From a phage: a stretch of DNA of 49,995 nucleotides. Every line of letters begins with the position of its first letter. The stretch's first letter is position 1. Made by a program: the position numbers and the translations under genes. Shown here piece by piece: positions 2 through 49,926 of this stretch. Where the stretch lies: the sequence record NC_105507.1; one strand, given 5' to 3'. Under the pieces are notes generated by a model. It saw only the letters and a list, made by a program, of their open reading frames with translations, searched no databases and was not told the origin of the DNA.

Positions 2-931
2 TTATAGCAGTGATTCGGGCTTGTAGAGTTTTCTTTCTACTCCCTGTTTAAAATTATCGTTAACAGGCATCATTATGTCAAGCCCTCTTTCCTCTGCCGC
101 GATTATCACATCACGATCATCTTTCCGGCAGACTACGCGCATTCTTCTTTCTCCTTTATATCTATGCGCAACCATTTCAAGATTTGAAGGAGTAAAACAG
201 GCCCACACCTCTTGACCAGTTGATAAATGAACATGCTGAGAATCAACCCAATCAAGGCACAAATAGATCGTCTTATCTGTACTACCTGTTTTAACAACAG
301 ATCCGCGCGTGTAGTCGCGAGCTAAAAACCAATCCTTTCCATCCTCATCAATGAAAAGCACGTTACACATTTCATCATCCAGCCCGTCATCATGCACCAG
401 GTGACAAGGTAGCGCGTGAATGTATCGACCATCCTTGACGCCGCAATCATAATGACAATCTTCCGGCGGATATATCCCCTCATAAACGCTTAAAGGTGTG
501 CGATCGAATTTTAATGTTTTTGCCATCACTTTTTCGCAACATTCATGACTTGCCTGTTTCCCGAACGAGTAACCAGAAGAACGCGAAGCGCGTTTGTTTG
601 CTCTGATCCTGTAATCTTGTGGCACTTTTCCGAGGAAGCGGCCCAAAATGTTGATGGCCTCGCTGTAAGGTTCGCCAGTTAATTTCATTAACCAACCGAT
701 CCCCGTGTCGTTGCCGCACACGTTGCAGATCGCGCCGCCGTCGCCCTCTTCATTTAGCTTATCAGTCCATCTAAAACGATCCTTACCGCCGCAGTGTGGG
801 CAAGGTTGATGCTTTTTGTTGAAAACATCGCTATGCAGTCCGCAAATGCTTTGTAGTGCTTCACGCCATAACCCCTTCATATATGGCAAAACATCTTCTT
901 TCTGATAGGTCATAAAGTTTTCAGTATTCAT
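2..931 (-). CDS. DNA primase-like protein (Zn-ribbon plus TOPRIM-like region)
   Basis: CPHCGG...CNVCG zinc-ribbon near N-terminus; start placed at ATG 931 with GAGG RBS (track ORF runs to GTG 1009); stop TAA at 2-4. Confidence 0.6.
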   Translation of the reverse strand: MNTENFMTYQKEDVLPYMKGLWREALQSICGLHSDVFNKKHQPCPHCGGKDRFRWTDKLNEEGDGGAICNVCGNDTGIGWLMKLTGEPYSEAINILGRFLGKVPQDYRIRANKRASRSSGYSFGKQASHECCEKVMAKTLKFDRTPLSVYEGIYPPEDCHYDCGVKDGRYIHALPCHLVHDDGLDDEMCNVLFIDEDGKDWFLARDYTRGSVVKTGSTDKTIYLCLDWVDSQHVHLSTGQEVWACFTPSNLEMVAHRYKGERRMRVVCRKDDRDVIIAAEERGLDIMMPVNDNFKQGVERKLYKPESLL

Positions 932-944
932 GGCAAACCTCAAT

Positions 945-985
945 AAAAAAGCCCAGCAAATATTATCATTTCGCTGGGCCTTATC
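945..985 (-). terminator. rho-independent terminator (minus strand)
   Basis: GCCCAGC/GCTGGGC 7-bp stem followed by T6 on minus strand, directly after stop of 987..1463. Confidence 0.5.
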
Positions 986-986
986 A

Positions 987-1463
987 TTAGCTATTCGTGC
1001 TGTTATCACCTTTGTAGAATCGTCCGCCTGGTTCGTAGTCTGAATTTTTGACTACGCGCAACATATCGTATTTGTCGCAACGGGTAGTAAGAGGCTTACC
1101 GTTAGAATCAAACCGCAGATCTGGACGACAAAATGATGCGCGGTATCCTTTGCATCCATTATATTTGTAGTCGTTATGCACCTTTTGTGCTCCAGCGGCT
1201 GAAATCATACCACGCTTTCGCCACTGGTTAACGACTTGCTGAGATACGCGCAGACGTCGAGCCATAGCAGGAACGCCGCCGTAATACTCGATCAGAATGT
1301 CAAGGCGAGATTTCAGGCTTGCTTTTACCTCATCTCGCAGGATAAGAAATCCGGTTCGGTGTTTTCGTGGTTTTTTGTCTTTACCTCGTCGCGTTCCGTT
1401 GTTACCGTTAATAGTGCGCTTGTCGATCTCACCCGTAGATACTGCAATTCGTGCATCTTTCAT
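987..1463 (-). CDS. HTH DNA-binding protein (Cro/YdaS-like)
   Basis: helix-turn-helix-like segment GVPAMARRLRVSQQVVNQWRKRG; GAGGTG RBS 5 nt upstream of ATG 1463. Confidence 0.55.
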   Translation of the reverse strand: MKDARIAVSTGEIDKRTINGNNGTRRGKDKKPRKHRTGFLILRDEVKASLKSRLDILIEYYGGVPAMARRLRVSQQVVNQWRKRGMISAAGAQKVHNDYKYNGCKGYRASFCRPDLRFDSNGKPLTTRCDKYDMLRVVKNSDYEPGGRFYKGDNSTNS

Positions 1464-1550: not shown

Positions 1551-3548
1551 ATGATTCCAAATATCGAAAAACAAATATCAGCATTAGGCGAGGCAGTAAT
1601 AAAAAGCATCCAAGAGCGATTCACGGTTGGCAATATAGTGCCTTATCCTTATCAGTGCGTTGCGTATGCAGAGATCGCAAAGCGCATGAAAAACTATGAG
1701 CATCCTTTCTTTGTTAAGGCTTCTGTATCGGCTGGCAAAACATTGATGTTTGCGATGGTTGCGGCGCAATGCCGCAAAATGGGATTGAAAATGATGGTCC
1801 TTGCTCGCCAGGCTGAAATTGTTGATCAGGATTCGGAAGAGATCAGCAATCTTGGCGTGCCAAACTCAATCTATTGCGCCGGACTGAAAACAAAAAGCGC
1901 ATACTTTCCGATCGTAGTCGGTTCTGAGGGCACTGTAGTAAACGGATTGTTTAAGTCGTTAGGTGATTATGTTCCGCACGTTATCGGTATTGATGAATGT
2001 CACCAGGTGGATTGGGAGGATCTCGCGGACGCGATAGAAAATAATGAATCTTACCAGCAGATGACCACTAAGAAGGATTTGCCAGTACTGATTGGAGAAG
2101 AACAGCAATTTGATTCCAATGGCGATCCAATGTTCGGAACAGGGCGCACACAGTACACCGTAATAATCATGGAAATGATGCGCAGGTGTCGCGAGGCATA
2201 CGGGCACGAATTGCGAATATTCGGCATGACTGGATCTGAGTTTCGCGGCGTGGTTCCAATACTGGTTGAAGATAAGAACAAAAAGGGATTCTGGCGTGAG
2301 CAAGTAACTAACATAGACACAAACTACTTAATCAAATTCGGTTCGGTAGTGCCAACAAATTTCGGCGACGTCGGCGACCTGGGGTATGACCTTTCAGAGT
2401 TCGAGGCCAGTAGCGAGGACGGCGTTTCAGACTTTGACGCTAAAACATTGCGCAAGATGGAAGAAAAGATCCATCAAGACGCAACAATGACACAGAAAAT
2501 CATGGCTAAAGTCCATGAGATATGCAAAGACAGGAACGGAGTTTTAGTTACATGCGCAGGGGAAAGGCACTGCAAGGAGGCCGCCGCCGCACTGCCGCCA
2601 GGCGTTGAATACAGGATCATAACTGGCAAGACTGGAGATAATCAGCGTAAAGAGTGGCTGAGGGAGGCATACGAGGGAAAAGTAAAATACATCTTCCAGG
2701 TACAGGCGCTTACCACTGGCGTTAACGTTCCGTTTTGGGATACTTCGGTAATGCTGAGAAAGATAGGATCTCTAACATTGCTTATCCAGCTTTTGGGGCG
2801 CGGCATGCGACTGCTTAAGCAATGGCACATTGAACAGGGATTCAAGAAAAAAGATCATCTTGTATTGGATTTTGCAGGTACTATGGATGAGTTAGGTGAT
2901 TTGTATTTCGATCCAATCCTTGAGCAAGCGCAATTCCAAAAGAGATTTACAAACGGGAAAGAGCCTAAGACTTGTCCGATATGTGGAACGCTAAACAGCT
3001 TTTACGCTCGCCGATGTATGCACGTAGACGATAACGGGAAGCGATGTGAGCATTTTTGGACTTACAGAATTTGCGAGGACCAGGTAGATCCGAGAACGAA
3101 AAAGATAATCAAGCGCGGTTGTGGAACAAAAAACGACGTAGTGGCGAGAGTATGCCGTTGTTGCGATATTTCTCTTGTCGATCCTAACGAGAAGTTAAGC
3201 GGTAAGCACTACACCAAAAACGATTGGTGCAACGTTAAATCTTTCCGCGTTGATATGACGAAAAACCAGAAAGGAATTATTTTTTGCTATGAGCTTGAGG
3301 CCAACGGCGATACGTTCAAGGCATACGAAAGATTTTTCCCTGAGTCAGAAAGCAACATTTGCCGGACGATATGGAGAAAAATAGCATTGCAGCACATACC
3401 GGATCGCAAGATTGCTGGTATGGTGGCGAGCTATAGAAATGCTCGTAAAATAATGTCATACGCTCATCACATCATGCCGCCTGTACGCGTAACGCATCGC
3501 AAAAACGGCAAAGGTGAGGATAACATTGCAAAACGGGAGTTTGTTTAA
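1551..3548 (+). CDS. SF2 DNA helicase with C-terminal Zn-ribbons
   Basis: Walker A SAGKT, DECH box, LLGRGMRL motif VI-like; C-terminal CxxC clusters. Confidence 0.85.
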   Translation: MIPNIEKQISALGEAVIKSIQERFTVGNIVPYPYQCVAYAEIAKRMKNYEHPFFVKASVSAGKTLMFAMVAAQCRKMGLKMMVLARQAEIVDQDSEEISNLGVPNSIYCAGLKTKSAYFPIVVGSEGTVVNGLFKSLGDYVPHVIGIDECHQVDWEDLADAIENNESYQQMTTKKDLPVLIGEEQQFDSNGDPMFGTGRTQYTVIIMEMMRRCREAYGHELRIFGMTGSEFRGVVPILVEDKNKKGFWREQVTNIDTNYLIKFGSVVPTNFGDVGDLGYDLSEFEASSEDGVSDFDAKTLRKMEEKIHQDATMTQKIMAKVHEICKDRNGVLVTCAGERHCKEAAAALPPGVEYRIITGKTGDNQRKEWLREAYEGKVKYIFQVQALTTGVNVPFWDTSVMLRKIGSLTLLIQLLGRGMRLLKQWHIEQGFKKKDHLVLDFAGTMDELGDLYFDPILEQAQFQKRFTNGKEPKTCPICGTLNSFYARRCMHVDDNGKRCEHFWTYRICEDQVDPRTKKIIKRGCGTKNDVVARVCRCCDISLVDPNEKLSGKHYTKNDWCNVKSFRVDMTKNQKGIIFCYELEANGDTFKAYERFFPESESNICRTIWRKIALQHIPDRKIAGMVASYRNARKIMSYAHHIMPPVRVTHRKNGKGEDNIAKREFV

Positions 3549-3967
3549 TGGCTATAACTGATAAAGGAGATTATCTTGAGTTTTACGAAAGAGATCCAAC
3601 CGACACGAGAAAGGAAGTTAATCACCAGATAGATAGCTTTCAGTGGTTGACTTATGCTCATCCTTATTTGCTAGCGTGGCATACGGTAAACGAGAATGAG
3701 AAGTCGAAAGTAACGGCGATGATTGATCAGCAGTCCGGCTTGGTTAAGGGGGTAAGCGATTTCATCATCCTGATTGGTTCAAACGGAAAATACCCCTTTG
3801 CAGCGATTGAGATCAAACGAGTGAATAAATCAGGCAAGGGGAAAGCATCACCAGTCAGCGATGAACAAAAGGCTTTTTTGCGTCGCGTTCGCAGCTTAGG
3901 AGGATTCGCTGCGGTCGCCTACGGATTTAATCAGTTTAAGTTAGCTATTGAATACATGCTTAAATAG
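3548..3967 (+). CDS. VRR-NUC domain nuclease (PD-(D/E)XK)
   Basis: DFIIL...AIEIK...Q pattern typical of VRR-NUC; ATG overlaps helicase stop (TAATG). Confidence 0.65.
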   Translation: MAITDKGDYLEFYERDPTDTRKEVNHQIDSFQWLTYAHPYLLAWHTVNENEKSKVTAMIDQQSGLVKGVSDFIILIGSNGKYPFAAIEIKRVNKSGKGKASPVSDEQKAFLRRVRSLGGFAAVAYGFNQFKLAIEYMLK

Positions 3968-8295: not shown

Positions 8296-8487
8296 TTCCA
8301 TACGCTTTACCGTAACCAGTAATACACCATCATCATTGCATAAAACATGTTCAGTGGTGCTAAAAGCGCGCATATCTGAATAAAGTAGCGTAAGTAAAGC
8401 ATGAATAAAATCCTCATGTGATATTGAATTTACGGCGCAGTGCTTCAAGATCTTGTCTATTAGCTTTTGCCTGGAACAATTCATCAT
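8293..8487 (-). CDS. hypothetical protein (doubtful)
   Basis: track ORF overlapping 8414..8809 by 74 nt; an alternative ATGA-coupled 36-aa hydrophobic ORF 8307..8417 exists. Confidence 0.25.
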   Translation of the reverse strand: MMNCSRQKLIDKILKHCAVNSISHEDFIHALLTLLYSDMRAFSTTEHVLCNDDGVLLVTVKRME

Positions 8488-8809
8488 CGCCCATCTCCCC
8501 TATTCTAGCAATATCCCTGATCCAGTCGTTGCGCATACCATCCAGGCTATACAATTCGAATCCGAAAGGCCGCTTTGACGATCCTTTGGACCAGTATTTA
8601 CCGCAGACCCCATCTATATAGCCAGCCGTCATCATTCTTGCGCAAAATTCCTTAGATGCAAGGCTGGCGAACATTCGCGGCGTAAGTCCGGCGGCCCGTG
8701 CGAGCCGCTCACATTCTCTATGCTGATAGATAAATTTGGCTATGTGCTGCCTGTTAAACCAGTCGTATGACTCACACCATTTATACAGATCAAGCAAAAA
8801 CATAATCAT
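8414..8809 (-). CDS. hypothetical protein
   Basis: ORF tightly coupled to upstream 526-aa gene. Confidence 0.55.
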   Translation of the reverse strand: MIMFLLDLYKWCESYDWFNRQHIAKFIYQHRECERLARAAGLTPRMFASLASKEFCARMMTAGYIDGVCGKYWSKGSSKRPFGFELYSLDGMRNDWIRDIARIGEMGDDELFQAKANRQDLEALRRKFNIT

Positions 8810-10386
8810 CCCAGCAGTATTGGATTGACAAAAATAACACCATTAATCACACAAACATAATTTCTTTCTTCCAGCATTGGCAGCAAGTGCCCTTCTATCC
8901 TCTTCATTACGCCAGCCTGACCAACGAAAGGTTTTACCTTTCTCGCTGATTCGTACAGGGCGCGAATATTCAGAATCCCTTTATTAGCCTTGCCGTGTCT
9001 AGTGATCAATTCAATCAATTTGCCCATTTCAGCATCATCACCAGCATAACCAGAAGCATTGGCGGCGCTAATGTATGTTTTGCTCAATTCCTGAAACATG
9101 ATCAACGCCTCTTGCATTGTTTCCACGTCGATCTCTTTCGACTTCTGCGGGTATCCAGCAGGATTAAACCAGTTGCGGATAACATGCAGGACGGAAGCAA
9201 GCCTGATCACCTGTTTATCCATTTTACCCAGCGCACCGCGTAACATTGTATGAGAATACTTTCCGCCGTCTGCAAGATGCGGTTCCATATCCTGGCGAGC
9301 AATGTTGAGCACTCGCATAGCTGAGCGGCTTATTTTCAGCGATATATTTGATTCGCTCATGATGTTATGCACCAATTGATAATATTGGGCCTTCAATTCA
9401 GGATCCACCGCCTCATAGGTAGAATCACCATTTTCATCAATGAATGAGCGACGGCCTAAGAATGATTCCTCACGGACCAACAAAAAGCGCTCACTCACAC
9501 CGATACCGCGCGATCCAGCGTCCATGATTCCGCTTATCGTTTCATCCTGGGCTATAACGCTCATACATCCAAGCGCGCGAAAACTCATGTTATTGTCAGC
9601 ATTAGCACGGGCAATTGATACGTGACCATTATCCCACGCCTTAAGCACTAGCTCGCTGTTAGTCTTCCTTTCGCTATTGGCATAGGTCAAGCCTAACAGG
9701 CTGTTAATACTTGTTGCTTCGTCAGATATTACGGCAAAGTTACCTTGCTTGTTGTTGATTTTCGCCAAGCCTTCTGGAGTTGTATCTGAAACAGGAAAAG
9801 TTATATCACACATTTTTTCCAGCTTTTCCTCCAGATCCTCTTTTTCCTGGTATAGAGATTCCATATCAGCGCCGGATCTTTCGCTTTTCATCTCCTTTGC
9901 AAGACCTGCCAGCTTTGCCTGTATTTTCTTTCTTTCCTTGCGGCGTTGCTCGTTGATCTTCTCAACTTCCGCAATCATCGGAGCAATAGCCATGCTGTTG
10001 ATCGCAGATTTACCAGTTGACGGCGGCTGGCTTGTAACGACGTAAAGCGCAGTCGGCTGATCGGTTCCGTGATAGTCAACCGTAAAGCGTCCAAGCATAG
10101 CGGCAGAAATGCAGCCGATAAAGTGCATGTAAGCCGATGATTCAGGGAATTGAACGGATCGCGCAATGCTGCGTGATAACTTGCCGACAACATCAATATC
10201 ATTACCAAGAGAAATAACGGGGTAGCGATCGTGACCGCTATTCACATCCTTTACGTCGCCCCAAAAGCTGGACGACTGGCGATAGCCGTTAGCCTGAATT
10301 GATACGCGAACTGGCGAAAGGTTCTGGCTTTCAGCCATAGCGATTATTTGTTGTGGAGTTAATTTGTTCGTTTCTAATGAAAACAT
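8806..10386 (-). CDS. P-loop NTPase-like protein (SF3-helicase-like Walker A/B), function unknown
   Basis: PPSTGKS Walker A-like and FAVISDEA Walker B-like segments, coiled-coil insert; AAGGAG RBS. Confidence 0.6.
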   Translation of the reverse strand: MFSLETNKLTPQQIIAMAESQNLSPVRVSIQANGYRQSSSFWGDVKDVNSGHDRYPVISLGNDIDVVGKLSRSIARSVQFPESSAYMHFIGCISAAMLGRFTVDYHGTDQPTALYVVTSQPPSTGKSAINSMAIAPMIAEVEKINEQRRKERKKIQAKLAGLAKEMKSERSGADMESLYQEKEDLEEKLEKMCDITFPVSDTTPEGLAKINNKQGNFAVISDEATSINSLLGLTYANSERKTNSELVLKAWDNGHVSIARANADNNMSFRALGCMSVIAQDETISGIMDAGSRGIGVSERFLLVREESFLGRRSFIDENGDSTYEAVDPELKAQYYQLVHNIMSESNISLKISRSAMRVLNIARQDMEPHLADGGKYSHTMLRGALGKMDKQVIRLASVLHVIRNWFNPAGYPQKSKEIDVETMQEALIMFQELSKTYISAANASGYAGDDAEMGKLIELITRHGKANKGILNIRALYESARKVKPFVGQAGVMKRIEGHLLPMLEERNYVCVINGVIFVNPILLG

Positions 10387-10414
10387 TCGTTAGCTTCTCC
10401 TTTGTGGGCCGTAA

Positions 10415-10457
10415 ATTTTAACGGCCCAATACTACCCCGTTTTGTCAAAAAGTGCTA
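10415..10457 (-). promoter_or_regulatory. TAGCAC-box promoter-like cassette
   Basis: box variant containing TTGACA; TAAAAT in loop of GGGCCGT/ACGGCCC hairpin at 22-bp spacing. Confidence 0.55.
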
Positions 10458-46920: not shown

Positions 46921-46950
46921 AAAAAGCCCCGCATATGCGGGGCATTTTTT
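46921..46950. terminator. bidirectional rho-independent terminator
   Basis: perfect palindrome GCCCCGCATATGCGGGGC flanked by A5 and T6. Confidence 0.75.
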
Positions 46951-47644
46951 AGTCTAACGTGGTTGGTTTGTTTACCAGTGCCGCTACAACCGCTTTTAGC
47001 TCGTCAATTTCTTTTCTCATCTCATCGTTTTCCGCTTTCAGTTTCTTAACGTGGTGAATCAGTGGAACAGTGAGGCGGTCATACATAACGCCTTCCGCCA
47101 CCATGCCATTACTTGAAGCAATGGCAGAATCTTCTCCTTCTTGCAGCGGTCGCCAGTGAACGTACTCCGGCGCAATTTCTCCAACCTCTTCCGCGATTAG
47201 CCCGTACCATCCCCAATCTTTACGGTCGCTTTCACAAGTTGACCGATACCAAACAGGACGCATTTCAAGCATCAGATCCGCATATTCATCAATAACCGAT
47301 TCTACGCTGCTCTTATAACGAGAAGAGGAAGTGGAGCGTAAAACTTGCGACACTCCAGCATTTGGATCAAGCCATAAGTTTGCTGATTGAGCGGTTGTGT
47401 TAAGATTAAATAAATAAAATGCATCGTTACCAGTTAGGGGGTAAAAACTCCCACTATACCTTCCGCTATCCAACTCGGATGATAGATCAGTTTTTTTTAG
47501 ATACGGTTTCAACTTATTGTCAACATCAGCAGTTGATGCCTTTCCGGCAACATCCTGTTTTAGTGTCGAAACATCCTGTTTTAGTGTCGAAACATCATTT
47601 TTCAGCTTCGTTATATCACTAGGTATAACAGTGACTGTAGCCAT
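46949..47644 (-). CDS. tail fibre-like protein with C-terminal intramolecular chaperone (S74-like) domain
   Basis: WYGLIAEEVGEIAPEYV motif resembling fibre chaperone domain; N-terminal DVSTLKQ repeats. Confidence 0.6.
   Translation of the reverse strand: MATVTVIPSDITKLKNDVSTLKQDVSTLKQDVAGKASTADVDNKLKPYLKKTDLSSELDSGRYSGSFYPLTGNDAFYLFNLNTTAQSANLWLDPNAGVSQVLRSTSSSRYKSSVESVIDEYADLMLEMRPVWYRSTCESDRKDWGWYGLIAEEVGEIAPEYVHWRPLQEGEDSAIASSNGMVAEGVMYDRLTVPLIHHVKKLKAENDEMRKEIDELKAVVAALVNKPTTLD
47549..47597. repeat. tandem 21-bp direct repeat (coding)
   Basis: AACATCCTGTTTTAGTGTCGA x2.3 encoding DVSTLKQ heptads. Confidence 0.8.
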
Positions 47645-47656
47645 TTTCCTAACTCC

Positions 47657-47935
47657 TTAAGCCCATTCTCTAATAGGCTGATCTAACTCAACCACGTATC
47701 CATTAAAAATTACGGCATCAAACTTATCATCAATGATTCGCACATTAACGAAATAGCCGTCGTTCTTTCGCGCAATCTCCTCGCCATCGTCAGATCGTGC
47801 AATTACTGTATAAGTATTGCCGATTACATCGAGCAGGATTGCATCCTGAATGGATTCGTTATCATCCCAATTAATTTTTCCTAAAAAGGCCGAAAACTCG
47901 GCCTTGTCTGAAAATTTTAATGTTAAATCACGCAT
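47657..47935 (-). CDS. hypothetical protein (between tail-fibre genes)
   Basis: ATG overlaps stop of tail fibre gene (TAATG); track ORF extends to 47980. Confidence 0.45.
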   Translation of the reverse strand: MRDLTLKFSDKAEFSAFLGKINWDDNESIQDAILLDVIGNTYTVIARSDDGEEIARKNDGYFVNVRIIDDKFDAVIFNGYVVELDQPIREWA

Positions 47936-49890
47936 TAAACAATTTCCCCCAATTGATGATCTGTTAGTGCCTTGTGCCATATACGGAAGTTTCTAACGTG
48001 CCCGAAAAGATGGCGTTCGCCTGTACTTGTTTGTCCGCCAATCCTTATAGTAGCCGTTGATACTATATATCTCCATTCCGTTTTTGTTTCGCTTGATATT
48101 CTGGCATTACTTACACAACAAGTATTGTAATCACTCTTTACTCTCATTCCTATGATCATCTTTTTTAGTTTCGCATTCTCGTTAACCCTTCTGTTTGATT
48201 TACCTATATCGCAATAAGGGAATCCATCATTATCGCCCTCGGCAGATCCGAAAGCAAGAATAATTGCCGCACCAGATTGATGACCTCCAGTATCAAAAAC
48301 ACGAGGCGCAGCATTTGGCGTCATACTCCAGTTTTTATTAGCCTCCACAAGAACTGTAAACGGCAAATTGTAAAGGTTGTTTTTTATTGGCACTGTAACC
48401 ATATCGCTTGCCCTTGTTGTCGGACTTTCATTAGTTACAATGAATGATGAAGCGCAAGATCCAACCTCTACTTGAGGAGTTGTTAAATCCATAAAGCTAT
48501 TTTCATCAAAAACTTCTCCTTGTTTATTAACGACCTGTATTACCCCCCTAATGGAAGTTGATTCATCAGTAACTTTGTAAACTATTTCTGCAAAAATCCA
48601 TTCCCCGTCTATGGTAGCGTTCTTTAGCACTATGTTTTTTGCGTCAACTCCAGAAGTTGCCACCCCTAAGTTATCGCAATCAATAATAGCAGAAGCAACA
48701 GAAGATAAAGGATCTCCCTTGTCAAATCTTGCTGCAAATCTTACATTTTTCCCCTTAGCCCTAAAAGATATTGTAACTCCATCACCCTTTACAACTGCAA
48801 TCTTATTTGTAGTAAGTCCAGCTATAATAGTGTAAGAGCCTACGCCACCTAAATATTCCCCTGGTTTAAATGTTGCATACTTAAACCCCCTTTCATCAGT
48901 CTTAGTTTTACCTCTTTCTAATCCTGGATTTGGATTCCATGATTCAGGCTTATTTGAATTTACAAAATAGTTTGTTCTCTGCCCTTCAATCAAAAGACCA
49001 TCCTTTTCAAATCTAGGTTCATCAATAGCAGCATTAGTAAGCACCCCAGACTTATTAATGTAAGTAGCGGTTGATGCGCGTTTAAACTTAACAATCTTGT
49101 CACCTGGCATCGTGATCTCATCGTCACCTATAACAATCTTTTTATATGACGGAGAGAATCCGGTGATCATATCCAGGGAATCATTAAACGGTATCCACAC
49201 GTCCGGCAACGGTTGCAATAAATCTTTGTAAGGTTCTGCGGCCTGCTTTGCGTATTCCTCCGCTTGATCTCGCGCACTTTCAGCTCCTGCCTTTGCAGTG
49301 TTCGCAGCGTCACGCGCGGATTCAGCGCCAGACTTTGCTGCTTCAGCGCCAGTCTTTGCAGTGTTTGCAGCGGCGCGCGCGGATTCAGCGGCAGCCTTTG
49401 CAGTGTCAGCACCTTTCTTGCTATTCTCTGCATTTGTTGCGCTTGTCTTTGCGTTATTCTCGCTAGTTTTAGCTGCCTTCTGGCTTGCTGCGGCTGCGTC
49501 AGCATTTGTCTTTACGTCTTCCTGGATCTTCTGTAGCTTATCCCAATCAAAATCCTTGATGATCTCAATAAATCCAGCAAGCTCCGACTCCTTTCCCTGG
49601 TAATAACGCAACGTTTCCGCTACGTCTTGCGCAAGACCGTCAACCGTTAACGAGTCATGAAGCAAGATCAGGTAATTTGTCTTCTTGACTACCGCGCCGC
49701 CAGTAGTAATTGCGCGAATGCTTGTATCGCTAATCACTTCTGTAATCACAGCAGCTTGCAAAGGTTGAGCAAGAAAGAAAATAGTTGCGCCTGGGCGAAT
49801 CAAGGTTAATTGCTCACGCCATTTTGTACCGTAACCAGTTACATAACCTTGCGCGTCCATAGACGCTTGGCCTTGTCTGTAAATCGCCAT
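47935..49890 (-). CDS. tail fibre protein
   Basis: Ala-rich degenerate repeats (AKTSENNAKTSATNAE...), C-terminal beta-rich domain; AGGAGG RBS before ATG 49890 (track GTG 49914). Confidence 0.8.
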   Translation of the reverse strand: MAIYRQGQASMDAQGYVTGYGTKWREQLTLIRPGATIFFLAQPLQAAVITEVISDTSIRAITTGGAVVKKTNYLILLHDSLTVDGLAQDVAETLRYYQGKESELAGFIEIIKDFDWDKLQKIQEDVKTNADAAAASQKAAKTSENNAKTSATNAENSKKGADTAKAAAESARAAANTAKTGAEAAKSGAESARDAANTAKAGAESARDQAEEYAKQAAEPYKDLLQPLPDVWIPFNDSLDMITGFSPSYKKIVIGDDEITMPGDKIVKFKRASTATYINKSGVLTNAAIDEPRFEKDGLLIEGQRTNYFVNSNKPESWNPNPGLERGKTKTDERGFKYATFKPGEYLGGVGSYTIIAGLTTNKIAVVKGDGVTISFRAKGKNVRFAARFDKGDPLSSVASAIIDCDNLGVATSGVDAKNIVLKNATIDGEWIFAEIVYKVTDESTSIRGVIQVVNKQGEVFDENSFMDLTTPQVEVGSCASSFIVTNESPTTRASDMVTVPIKNNLYNLPFTVLVEANKNWSMTPNAAPRVFDTGGHQSGAAIILAFGSAEGDNDGFPYCDIGKSNRRVNENAKLKKMIIGMRVKSDYNTCCVSNARISSETKTEWRYIVSTATIRIGGQTSTGERHLFGHVRNFRIWHKALTDHQLGEIV

Positions 49891-49908
49891 TTGTAAAATC
49901 CTCCTAAA

Positions 49909-49926
49909 TAGCACTTTTTGCTAATG
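49909..49926 (+). repeat. degenerate TAGCAC box copy
   Basis: TAGCACTTTTTGCTAATG overlapping tail-fibre RBS region, no -10 at canonical spacing. Confidence 0.35.

What the first reader, a model, noticed from the sequence alone, without database searches (positions are those of the whole stretch)
8806..10386. 526-aa early protein with SF3-helicase-like Walker motifs
This is the largest protein of the early cluster. It has a Walker A-like PPSTGKS and, about 90 residues later after a charged coiled-coil insert, a Walker B-like FAVISDEA. That arrangement resembles SF3/D5-type NTPases rather than the SF2 helicase encoded at 1551..3548, so it may be a second replication NTPase of unknown role.
Basis: inference. 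Interest (0 to 1): 0.55.

Follow-up and report, generated by a model that had tools for sequence, protein, structure and literature searches.

The report
MCM-like DNA helicase of T1-type phage
The 526-residue protein is a real and conserved ATP-driven DNA helicase of a T1-like coliphage, but it has the MCM-type (SF6) fold rather than the SF3/D5 type, and it belongs to a described family (DUF3987) already annotated as "DNA helicase" in related phages, so it is ordinary.

Summary
The ORF is real. It lies at 8806..10386 on the minus strand and encodes 526 aa, with PPSTGKS at residues 121-127 and FAVISDEA at 217-224. A predicted antiparallel coiled coil sits between the two motifs.

The window is a Drexlerviridae (Warwickvirus, T1-like) phage. 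The identical protein, and proteins more than 99% identical, are deposited as "DNA helicase" or "putative helicase".

Residues invariant across the family fall where the AAA+ catalytic residues are expected: K126, E223, Q280, R300, K388 and hairpin R260.

Relatives are fused to DnaG-type or AEP primases, or to the DnaB N-terminal domain. In a distant phage the gene sits in one operon with a DnaG-type primase and the ortholog of the window's SF2 helicase.

Published work classes DUF3987 as SF6 putative replicative helicases. One member, AgaPH, is a proven 5'->3' helicase.

The protein is most likely the phage's replicative helicase. It is already known and of low interest.

The parts
8806..10386 (-). 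Complete CDS of the 526-aa DUF3987 / MCM-like helicase, stop codon included
   Evidence: ORF list; Pfam PF13148 at 151.2 bits against a cut-off of 27, residues 81-430; PHROG 2373 'DNA helicase' E 3.6e-244; 100% identical protein in phage Kalemo annotated 'DNA helicase'
10397..10402 (-). Shine-Dalgarno AAGGAG, 10 nt before the ATG
   Evidence: Read directly from the sequence
10096..10386 (-). N-terminal all-helical domain, residues 1-97. It contains no OB fold or zinc module.
   Evidence: Model secondary structure. In relative P0180 the first ~38 residues are replaced by a DnaB N-terminal domain.
9172..10095 (-). AAA+ ATPase module (alpha/beta core plus helical lid), residues 98-405, MCM-like
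10006..10029 (-). Walker A / P-loop QPPSTGKS, residues 120-127
   Evidence: Lies between strand 115-119 and helix 126-168 in the model. K126 is invariant in 48 diverse relatives.
9811..9984 (-). Charged antiparallel coiled-coil insertion, residues ~135-192, between helix alpha1 and the next core strand
   Evidence: Helices 126-168 and 172-191. It is the least conserved region of the AAA+ module and varies in length. Walker A-B spacing in relatives is 54-104 with a mode of 98.
9715..9738 (-). Walker B strand FAVISDEA, residues 217-224. E223 is the invariant catalytic-type glutamate.
   Evidence: Strand 217-221. E223 is invariant. D222 is D/A/S in 17/17/12 of 48 relatives.
9577..9624 (-). Beta-hairpin before the sensor-1 strand, residues 255-270, with invariant R260 at its tip. 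It is a candidate DNA-binding pre-sensor-1 hairpin.
   Evidence: Strands 255-258 and 267-270. R260 is invariant and R263 is present in 44 of 48. The DNA-binding role is inferred by analogy with MCM.
9541..9570 (-). Sensor-1 strand GCMSVIAQDE, residues 273-282, with Q280 invariant
   Evidence: Strand 273-279. Q280 is invariant. The spacing from E223 to Q280 is 53-59 residues in 46 of 48 relatives.
9484..9501 (-). GVSERF motif, residues 296-301. R300 is the candidate arginine finger (compare MCM 'SRF').
   Evidence: G296 and R300 are invariant and E299 is present in 46 of 48. The spacing from Q280 to R300 is 19-21 residues in all relatives. The trans-acting role is inferred.
9217..9249 (-). Lid-domain motif HTMLRGALGKMD, residues 380-390 (R383, G384, K388). 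It is a candidate sensor 2.
   Evidence: K388 is invariant, G384 is present in 46 of 48 and R383 in 37 of 48. It lies in helices 380-387 and 389-405. The role is inferred.
8809..9171 (-). C-terminal module, residues 406-526: a helical linker followed by a winged-helix domain (~468-526)
8414..8809 (-). Downstream 131-aa gene of unknown function (PHROG 2794, deposited as 'YdbL'), translationally coupled by an ATGA overlap
   Evidence: Overlap read from the sequence. A homolog was detected in 80 of the 83 related loci and lies adjacent on the same strand in 79 of those 80. No Pfam match.
2..1009 (-). Stand-alone DnaG/T7-gp4-type primase, the presumed partner of the helicase
   Evidence: Pfam Zn_Ribbon_Prim E 4.8e-15. 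PHROG 510 'DNA primase' matches only positions 6-316 of the 667-position profile.
1551..3548 (+). SF2 helicase (ResIII + Helicase_C) followed by a VRR-NUC nuclease at 3548..3967. It co-occurs with the DUF3987 helicase.
   Evidence: Pfam. Its ortholog (36% identity, E 5e-112) lies in the same operon as DUF3987 and the primase in distant locus L003.

Best explanation
The gene encodes the replicative DNA helicase of this T1-like phage, a DUF3987-family AAA+ ATPase with the MCM (superfamily 6) fold.

Shown here: family membership, the fold, and conservation of the catalytic-type residues (Walker A K126, Walker B E223, sensor-1 Q280, arginine R300, lid K388). Also shown: a beta-hairpin with invariant R260, a C-terminal winged helix, and genomic or physical linkage of the family to primases.

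Inferred mechanism:
- Six subunits form a ring with ATP bound at the subunit interfaces.
- R300 of one subunit reaches the neighbour's ATP.
- Hydrolysis moves the R260 hairpins along single-stranded DNA threaded through the ring, which unwinds the duplex.
- Polarity is probably 5'->3' on the lagging-strand template, as measured for the family member AgaPH.
- The helicase works with the phage's DnaG/T7-type primase (2..1009) and the host DNA polymerase III, since the phage has no polymerase.
- The winged helix may let the protein recognise DNA and load itself.
- The role of the coiled-coil insertion is unknown; it may be a docking arm.
- The SF2 helicase with VRR-NUC is then the accessory fork-remodelling or recombination enzyme.
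For: Family: Pfam DUF3987 at 151 bits against a cut-off of 27; PHROG 2373 'DNA helicase'.

Catalytic residues: K126, E223, R260, Q280, G296, R300 and K388 are invariant among 48 relatives of 23-40% identity, with near-fixed spacings.

C-terminal winged helix.

Link to priming:
- Relatives are fused to a DnaG zinc ribbon (P0150), a BT4734 AEP primase (P0238) or the NrS-1 primase-polymerase HBD (P0260).
- One relative (P0180) carries the DnaB N-terminal domain in place of the usual N-terminus.
- In L003 the gene order is DUF3987, DnaG-type primase, ortholog of the window's SF2 helicase, DUF3799 exonuclease.
- In L002 the gene is followed by the SF2 helicase, the exonuclease, AAA_24 and SSB.

No alternative candidate: the collinear complete genome JLBYU19 lists no DNA polymerase, DnaB-like helicase, loader or initiator. 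T1 and TLS are stated to lack a polymerase (PMC11447400). The window's primase matches only the primase half of a primase-helicase profile.

Conservation: homologs occur in 924 phage records, mostly T1-like, with fixed synteny.

Literature: DUF3987 is described as SF6, distantly related to MCM, with a C-terminal wHTH, and as predicted replicative helicases; N4 dns is essential (PMC4889955). AgaPH is a 5'->3' helicase that depends on ATP/dATP and on Walker A and B, and it binds its primase-polymerase (PMC11724360).
Against: - No experiment exists for this protein or for any T1-like ortholog that I could find.
- In T1-like phages the gene is not next to the primase. It lies ~8 kb away across the lysis cassette.
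- A recent TLS re-annotation names the SF2 protein as 'the helicase' of the replication region.
- Profiles built from the family find no MCM sequence in the PDB, so the MCM link here rests on a predicted structure plus a published HHsearch result.
- The MCM helix-2 insert and the N-terminal OB/zinc domain are absent from the model.
- The Walker B aspartate is not conserved in the family.
- Hexamer formation, polarity and the winged-helix function are all inferred.
- Old T1 work on dependence on host dna genes (Bourque and Christensen 1980, recalled from memory) could not be read. If T1 needs host DnaB, the fork-helicase role would be weakened.
Confidence: 0.7

Rival explanations
1. Initiator or loader rather than fork helicase. 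The protein uses its winged helix and AAA+ ring to recognise and melt the phage origin, in the manner of ORC/Cdc6 or DnaA. It then hands the DNA to host DnaB, which does the bulk unwinding.
For: The C-terminal winged helix resembles ORC/Cdc6 WHDs as much as the MCM WH. No other initiator is annotated in the genome. SaPI Rep proteins combine initiator and helicase roles through a WH domain (PMC9371898). The title of an unread 1980 paper on T1 suggests a need for host elongation genes (my memory only).
Against: The best structural matches are MCM motors, not ORC/Cdc6 or DnaA. A family member unwinds DNA directly. The DnaB N-terminal domain fused to DUF3987 in place of the DnaB motor (P0180) argues that DUF3987 substitutes for DnaB rather than loading it. 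The phage has its own primase. No iterons were found near the gene.
Confidence: 0.13
2. Accessory repair, recombination or restart helicase. The SF2 helicase at 1551..3548 is the replicative helicase, and this protein is a second, dispensable motor.
For: The SF2 helicase sits next to the primase and is called the replication helicase in the TLS paper. Both helicases always co-occur, so co-occurrence does not say which one is replicative.
Against: The SF2 protein is followed directly by a VRR-NUC nuclease. From general knowledge, that pairing is typical of fork-remodelling or branch-processing enzymes. Ring helicases of the DUF3987 type are the ones fused to primases and to the DnaB N-terminal domain. 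PMC4889955 assigns DUF3987, not such SF2 proteins, as replicative in phages that carry it.
Confidence: 0.1
3. SF3 / D5-type NTPase: a viral superfamily 3 helicase like vaccinia D5, P4 alpha or SaPI PriRep5.
Confidence: 0.03
4. A non-replicative NTPase, for example a counter-defence or defence-like factor carried in the cluster of small genes.
For: The gene sits among many small genes of unknown function, next to methyltransferases and an HNH endonuclease. DUF3987 also occurs in prophage-like islands (PMC6174562 and PMC9964261, listed).
Against: No meaningful PADLOC hit: only a coiled-coil artefact to JetC at E 0.012. The gene is found throughout T1-like phages with fixed synteny. The family is linked to primases.
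Confidence: 0.03

Closest known systems
DUF3987 (Pfam PF13148) helicases, with AgaPH (PriCT-DUF3987) as the biochemically characterised member
   Same: It shares the Pfam family, with a Walker A lysine and Walker B glutamate and a small C-terminal domain. AgaPH is an oligomeric, ATP/dATP-dependent 5'->3' DNA helicase that binds its primase-polymerase (PMC11724360).
   Different: AgaPH carries an N-terminal PriCT domain and pairs with an AEP primase-polymerase in an integrative element. The phage protein has a short helical N-terminus instead, and its presumed partner primase is of the DnaG/T7 type and encoded ~8 kb away.
MCM helicases (SF6) of archaea and eukaryotes
   Different: Identity is only 11-18%, and neither the Pfam MCM model nor PDB sequence searches give a hit. 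There is no N-terminal OB/zinc domain and no helix-2 insert hairpin. Instead a coiled coil is inserted after helix alpha1. The Walker B aspartate is not conserved. The family member tested runs 5'->3', whereas MCM runs 3'->5' (established knowledge).
Phage N4 dns and mycobacteriophage Corndog SF6 protein
   Same: They are named in PMC4889955 as DUF3987/SF6 putative replicative helicases of phages. N4 dns is stated there to be essential for replication.
   Different: N4 dns carries a C-terminal AEP primase domain, whereas the T1-type protein is a stand-alone helicase. Neither sequence was compared here.
SCCmec Cch and SaPI Rep self-loading helicases
   Different: The structural match is much weaker than to MCM proper. 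Those proteins prefer to translocate along the leading strand. Self-loading is only a hypothesis for the phage protein.
DnaB / T7 gp4 (SF4) replicative helicases
   Same: They hold the presumed same job: the ring helicase that partners a DnaG-type primase at a bacterial-type fork. One DUF3987 relative carries the DnaB N-terminal domain (P0180). The window's primase matches the primase half of a primase-helicase PHROG.
   Different: The motor fold is unrelated: RecA-like in SF4 and AAA+ here.
SF3 helicases (vaccinia D5, P4 alpha, SaPI5 PriRep5)
   Same: They are AAA+ ring helicases of viruses and mobile elements and are often fused to primases.

Membership tests
DUF3987 (PF13148) | Score above Pfam's gathering threshold over most of the model | tested here: met
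   151.2 bits against a cut-off of 27; residues 81-430 match model positions 3-350 of 364
DUF3987 (PF13148) | [quoted passage not shown] | tested here: met
   K126 and E223 are invariant in 48 relatives. The Walker B aspartate itself is variable.
DUF3987 (PF13148) | [quoted passage not shown] | tested here: met
DUF3987 (PF13148) | Association with AEP or DnaG primases, by fusion or by neighbourhood (PMC4889955) | tested here: met
   Fusions P0150, P0238 and P0260. The primase is the next gene in L003. In this window the primase is present but ~8 kb away.
DUF3987 (PF13148) | ATP-dependent DNA unwinding | not testable with these tools
   Shown only for AgaPH
SF6 / MCM-type AAA+ helicases | AAA+ module structurally closest to MCM | tested here: met
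SF6 / MCM-type AAA+ helicases | Sequence match to the MCM family (PF00493) | tested here: not met
   No Pfam MCM hit at E<=1. The A1 and A2 profiles find no MCM chain in the PDB at E<=10. PMC4889955 reports 98% HHsearch probability for another family member.
SF6 / MCM-type AAA+ helicases | Sensor 1, arginine finger and sensor 2 in MCM order | tested here: met
   Invariant Q280 at the end of strand 273-279, invariant R300 before strand 301-305, and invariant K388 with R383 in the lid. The functional roles are inferred.
SF6 / MCM-type AAA+ helicases | Pre-sensor-1 beta-hairpin | tested here: met
   Hairpin 255-258 / 267-270 with invariant R260
SF6 / MCM-type AAA+ helicases | Helix-2 insert hairpin | tested here: not met
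   Helix 204-214 is uninterrupted in the model. The only insertion is the coiled coil after helix alpha1.
SF6 / MCM-type AAA+ helicases | N-terminal OB-fold / zinc domain | tested here: not met
   Residues 1-97 are all-helical
SF6 / MCM-type AAA+ helicases | Hexameric ring and 3'->5' polarity | not testable with these tools
   The only DUF3987 member assayed is 5'->3'
SF3 helicases (D5 / P4 alpha / E1 type) | Fold closest to SF3 helicases, or an SF3 Pfam family match | tested here: not met
SF4 (DnaB-like) helicases | RecA-type motor domain | tested here: not met
   No DnaB_C match, and no RecA-fold helicase among the top structural hits
Known anti-phage defence proteins (PADLOC) | Match to a defence-system model | tested here: not met
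   Only a JetC hit at E 0.012 over the coiled coil

The most novel reading that the evidence does not exclude
The T1-type DUF3987 protein may be a self-loading initiator-helicase. Its winged helix would find the still unknown T1 origin, and an MCM-fold ring would then run 5'->3' on the lagging strand inside an otherwise bacterial replisome (host Pol III plus a DnaG-type primase). The coiled-coil arm would dock the partners, and the ATP site would work without the canonical Walker B aspartate. That would be an MCM-fold motor doing DnaB's job with DnaB's polarity, with no solved structure yet for any family member.
Probability: 0.3. Interest if true: 0.5.

Novelty: already known. Interest (0 to 1): 0.2.

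Why it matters
It matters little as a discovery. The gene is already annotated as a helicase in hundreds of T1-like phage genomes, and its family has been classified (SF6, MCM-like) and biochemically sampled.

What remains of interest is mechanistic. No DUF3987 structure turned up in the PDB searches run here. The one polarity measured is opposite to MCM. T1-like phages, which are common laboratory and fermentation contaminants, still have no defined origin, initiator or replisome. This protein is the obvious entry point for that work. It also corrects the habit of calling the SF2 protein 'the' T1 replication helicase.

Tried and rejected
- Sequence searches of the PDB with the protein and with two family profiles gave only chance hits: coiled coils, FabG and similar.
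It is uninformative and I discarded it.
- NCBIfam gave no match. PADLOC gave only a coiled-coil artefact.
- I looked for iterons, tandem repeats or other origin-like features near the gene and found nothing convincing. The 21-nt perfect repeat at 47549-47596 lies inside a coding ORF.
- I tested whether the small genes upstream of the helicase are conserved partners across distant phages. They are not.
- I tried to find T1 genetics or host dna-gene dependence in the paper library and found nothing usable. The supplements of PMC4889955 are not held.
- Papers on defence systems that mention Drexlerviridae helicases concern host or defence helicases, not this gene.
With A1 it returned only T1-like contigs.
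- I considered whether AQ-D281-E282 rather than SD222-E223 is the true Walker B. I rejected this because D281 and E282 are not conserved in the wider family, while E223 is invariant and sits at the end of the strand that follows the P-loop helix region.

Full report
**Observation.** The ORF at 8806..10386 exists but lies on the minus strand. It encodes 526 aa from an ATG, and the plus-strand reading of the same interval is full of stops. An AAGGAG ribosome-binding site sits 10 nt upstream of the ATG. The TGA stop overlaps the ATG of the next gene as ATGA. PPSTGKS occupies residues 121-127 and FAVISDEA residues 217-224. The stretch between them is rich in K, E and R. All elements of the observation are therefore present.

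**Where the window comes from.** The gene is 98-99% identical in DNA to Escherichia phages Kalemo, Poky, tiwna, FritzSarasin, JLBYU19 and others. JLBYU19 is almost collinear with the window and is classified Drexlerviridae; Tempevirinae; Warwickvirus, that is, T1-like. The gene is deposited as 'DNA helicase', 'putative helicase', 'YfiJ' or 'hypothetical protein'. By tblastn, 924 phage records encode a homolog, mostly phages of Klebsiella, Escherichia, Salmonella and Shigella.

**Family.** Pfam places residues 81-430 in DUF3987 (PF13148) at 151 bits against a cut-off of 27. PHROG 2373, 'DNA helicase', matches end to end at E 3.6e-244. NCBIfam and PADLOC give nothing meaningful. A profile search of 1.84 billion cluster representatives finds 6234 relatives at E<=1e-3.

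**Fold.**
- With a 30-sequence alignment (A1), AlphaFold2 gives a confident model with pLDDT 89.2 and pTM 0.87.
- The top 50 Foldseek hits are all MCM2-7 or archaeal MCM.
- Sequence and profile searches of the PDB find no relative, so the relationship is visible only at the level of structure or profile-profile comparison. This agrees with the published 98% HHsearch link of a family member to MCM (PMC4889955).

**Anatomy from the model.**
- Residues 1-97 form a helical N-terminal domain.
- A beta-hairpin at 101-111 precedes strand 115-119. From memory, this is the position of the MCM 'external' hairpin.
- The P-loop is at 120-127.
- Helix 126-168 and the return helix 172-191 form a long antiparallel coiled coil.
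- Helix 204-214 follows, then strand 217-221 ending in D222-E223.
- A beta-hairpin spans 255-270.
- Strand 273-279 ends in Q280.
- The motif G296-V-S-E-R300-F precedes strand 301-305.
- A helical lid spans 329-405 and carries R383, G384 and K388.
- A helical linker leads to a C-terminal domain.

**Conservation.** In a second alignment of 48 relatives of only 23-40% identity (A2), the invariant residues apart from the initiator methionine are K126, E223, R260, Q280, G296, R300 and K388. The spacings are almost fixed:

| Interval | Spacing (residues) |
|---|---|
| E223 to Q280 | 53-59 in 46 of 48 |
| Q280 to R300 | 19-21 |
| R300 to K388 | 81-96 |

This is the AAA+ pattern in MCM order: Walker A lysine, Walker B glutamate, pre-sensor-1 hairpin basic residue, sensor 1, arginine finger, sensor 2. 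Assigning those roles is inference.

Two features depart from the canonical pattern. The Walker B aspartate is D in only 17 of 48 relatives, with A in 17 and S in 12. The Walker A-B spacing ranges from 54 to 104, so the coiled coil is a common but not universal insertion. The MCM helix-2 insert and the N-terminal OB/zinc domain are absent.

**Evidence on function.**
- *Fusions.* Long relatives carry a DnaG CHC2 zinc ribbon (P0150), a BT4734-type AEP primase domain (P0238) or the NrS-1 primase-polymerase helix-bundle domain (P0260). One relative (P0180) carries the DnaB N-terminal domain followed by DUF3987 and has no DnaB motor.
- *Neighbourhood.* In a distant phage contig (L003, 39% identity) the gene order is DUF3987, DnaG-type primase, SF2 helicase, DUF3799 exonuclease. 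That SF2 helicase is the ortholog of the window's 1551..3548 (36% identity, E 5e-112). In L002 the order is DUF3987, the SF2 helicase, a 222-aa gene, DUF3799, AAA_24 and SSB. The helicase, primase and SF2 helicase thus form a conserved set that is merely split up in T1-like genomes.
- *Gene content.* The window has a stand-alone primase at 2..1009 with a T7-type zinc ribbon. It matches only the primase half of a primase-helicase PHROG. The collinear complete genome lists no polymerase, DnaB-type helicase, loader or initiator. T1 and TLS are said to use the host polymerase (PMC11447400).
- *Literature.* Kazlauskas et al. class DUF3987 as SF6 and predict replicative helicases, and they note that N4 dns is essential. 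AgaPH, a PriCT-DUF3987 protein, is an oligomeric 5'->3' helicase that depends on ATP/dATP and on Walker A and B, and it binds its primase-polymerase. A T1-related Pantoea phage paper already calls its ortholog a putative DUF3987 helicase.

**Interpretation.** The best reading is a ring-shaped, MCM-fold replicative helicase. It would work with the phage primase and host Pol III, probably 5'->3', and possibly loads itself through the winged helix. The SF2 helicase with VRR-NUC would then be the accessory fork-processing enzyme.

Fold and family are close to certain. The replicative role is well supported by context but untested for T1-like phages. Hexamer formation, polarity, self-loading and the role of the coiled coil are inferred.

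Rivals remain. The protein could be an initiator or loader for host DnaB. It could be an accessory helicase, with the SF2 protein replicative, as the TLS paper implies. Or it could be an SF3 or non-replicative NTPase, which the data here do not support. The gene is ~8 kb from the primase in T1-like phages, and I could not read the old T1 work on host dna genes.

**Novelty.** Already known. The family is named, classified and biochemically sampled, and the identical protein is annotated as a DNA helicase. Residual interest lies in mechanism: an MCM fold with apparently DnaB-like polarity and partners, no solved structure, and a non-canonical Walker B. It also lies in the still undefined T1 replisome.

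Noticed in passing
window 8414-8809 (-): A 131-aa gene of unknown function (PHROG 2794, deposited as 'YdbL', no Pfam match) is translationally coupled to the helicase by an ATGA overlap. A homolog was detected in 80 of 83 related loci and lies adjacent on the same strand in 79 of those 80. It may be a helicase partner. It is absent next to the helicase in the distant loci L002 and L003.
   Followed up: partly
A2 alignment, column of D222 (window 9721-9723): Across the DUF3987 family the Walker B aspartate is replaced by Ala or Ser in most members (D 17, A 17, S 12 of 48), while the following Glu is invariant. This is unusual for an AAA+ ATPase. T203 and E205 (the 'TPE' motif) are nearly invariant and might contribute to the active site.
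   Followed up: partly
P0180 (666 aa): This relative has a DnaB N-terminal domain (residues 9-106) fused to a DUF3987 motor (220-576) and has no DnaB C-terminal RecA-type domain. The motor appears to have been swapped within a DnaB-like architecture.
   Followed up: partly
window 1551-3967 (+); L003 10306-12123: The SF2 helicase (ResIII/Helicase_C, with Cys-rich zinc-ribbon-like stretches near residues 470-540) is followed by a VRR-NUC nuclease. It co-occurs with the DUF3987 helicase even in phages only ~36-39% identical. Its own role is uncharacterised.
   Followed up: partly
phage records MG065641.1 and MG065636.1: About 20 records named 'Campylobacter phage', with host Campylobacter jejuni, carry this gene at 88% protein identity to the coliphage version in T1-like genomes of 47-50 kb. 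The host attribution looks doubtful and may reflect an enterobacterial phage contaminant.
   Followed up: no
L084 (Klebsiella phage KL, NC_049838.1 6230-6508): This Webervirus record keeps only the last ~93 codons of the helicase, unannotated, beside a 91-aa 'terminase large subunit' fragment. This is probably an assembly junction or a deletion. If real, the phage would lack an intact helicase.
   Followed up: partly
window 47549-47596 and 49279-49401: A perfect 21-nt tandem repeat (2.3 copies) lies inside ORF 46949..47644 (-). A 63-nt repeat (2 copies, 86% identical) lies inside ORF 47935..49914 (-). In the collinear phage JLBYU19 the corresponding genes are annotated as tail-fibre domain or tail fibre proteins, so both are coding repeats and not origin iterons.
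   Followed up: partly
window 10411-10446 (-): A GC-rich stem-loop (GGGCCG ... CGGCCC) lies in the 68-nt gap just upstream of the helicase ribosome-binding site. Its possible regulatory or processing role was not examined.
   Followed up: no
JLBYU19 annotation: Many small genes in the collinear record carry implausible product names, such as 'polyribonucleotide nucleotidyltransferase' for 75 aa, 'phosphoglucomutase' for 128 aa, 'zonula occludens toxin' and 'cytochrome C''. Deposited annotations in this phage group should not be trusted for small ORFs.
   Followed up: no
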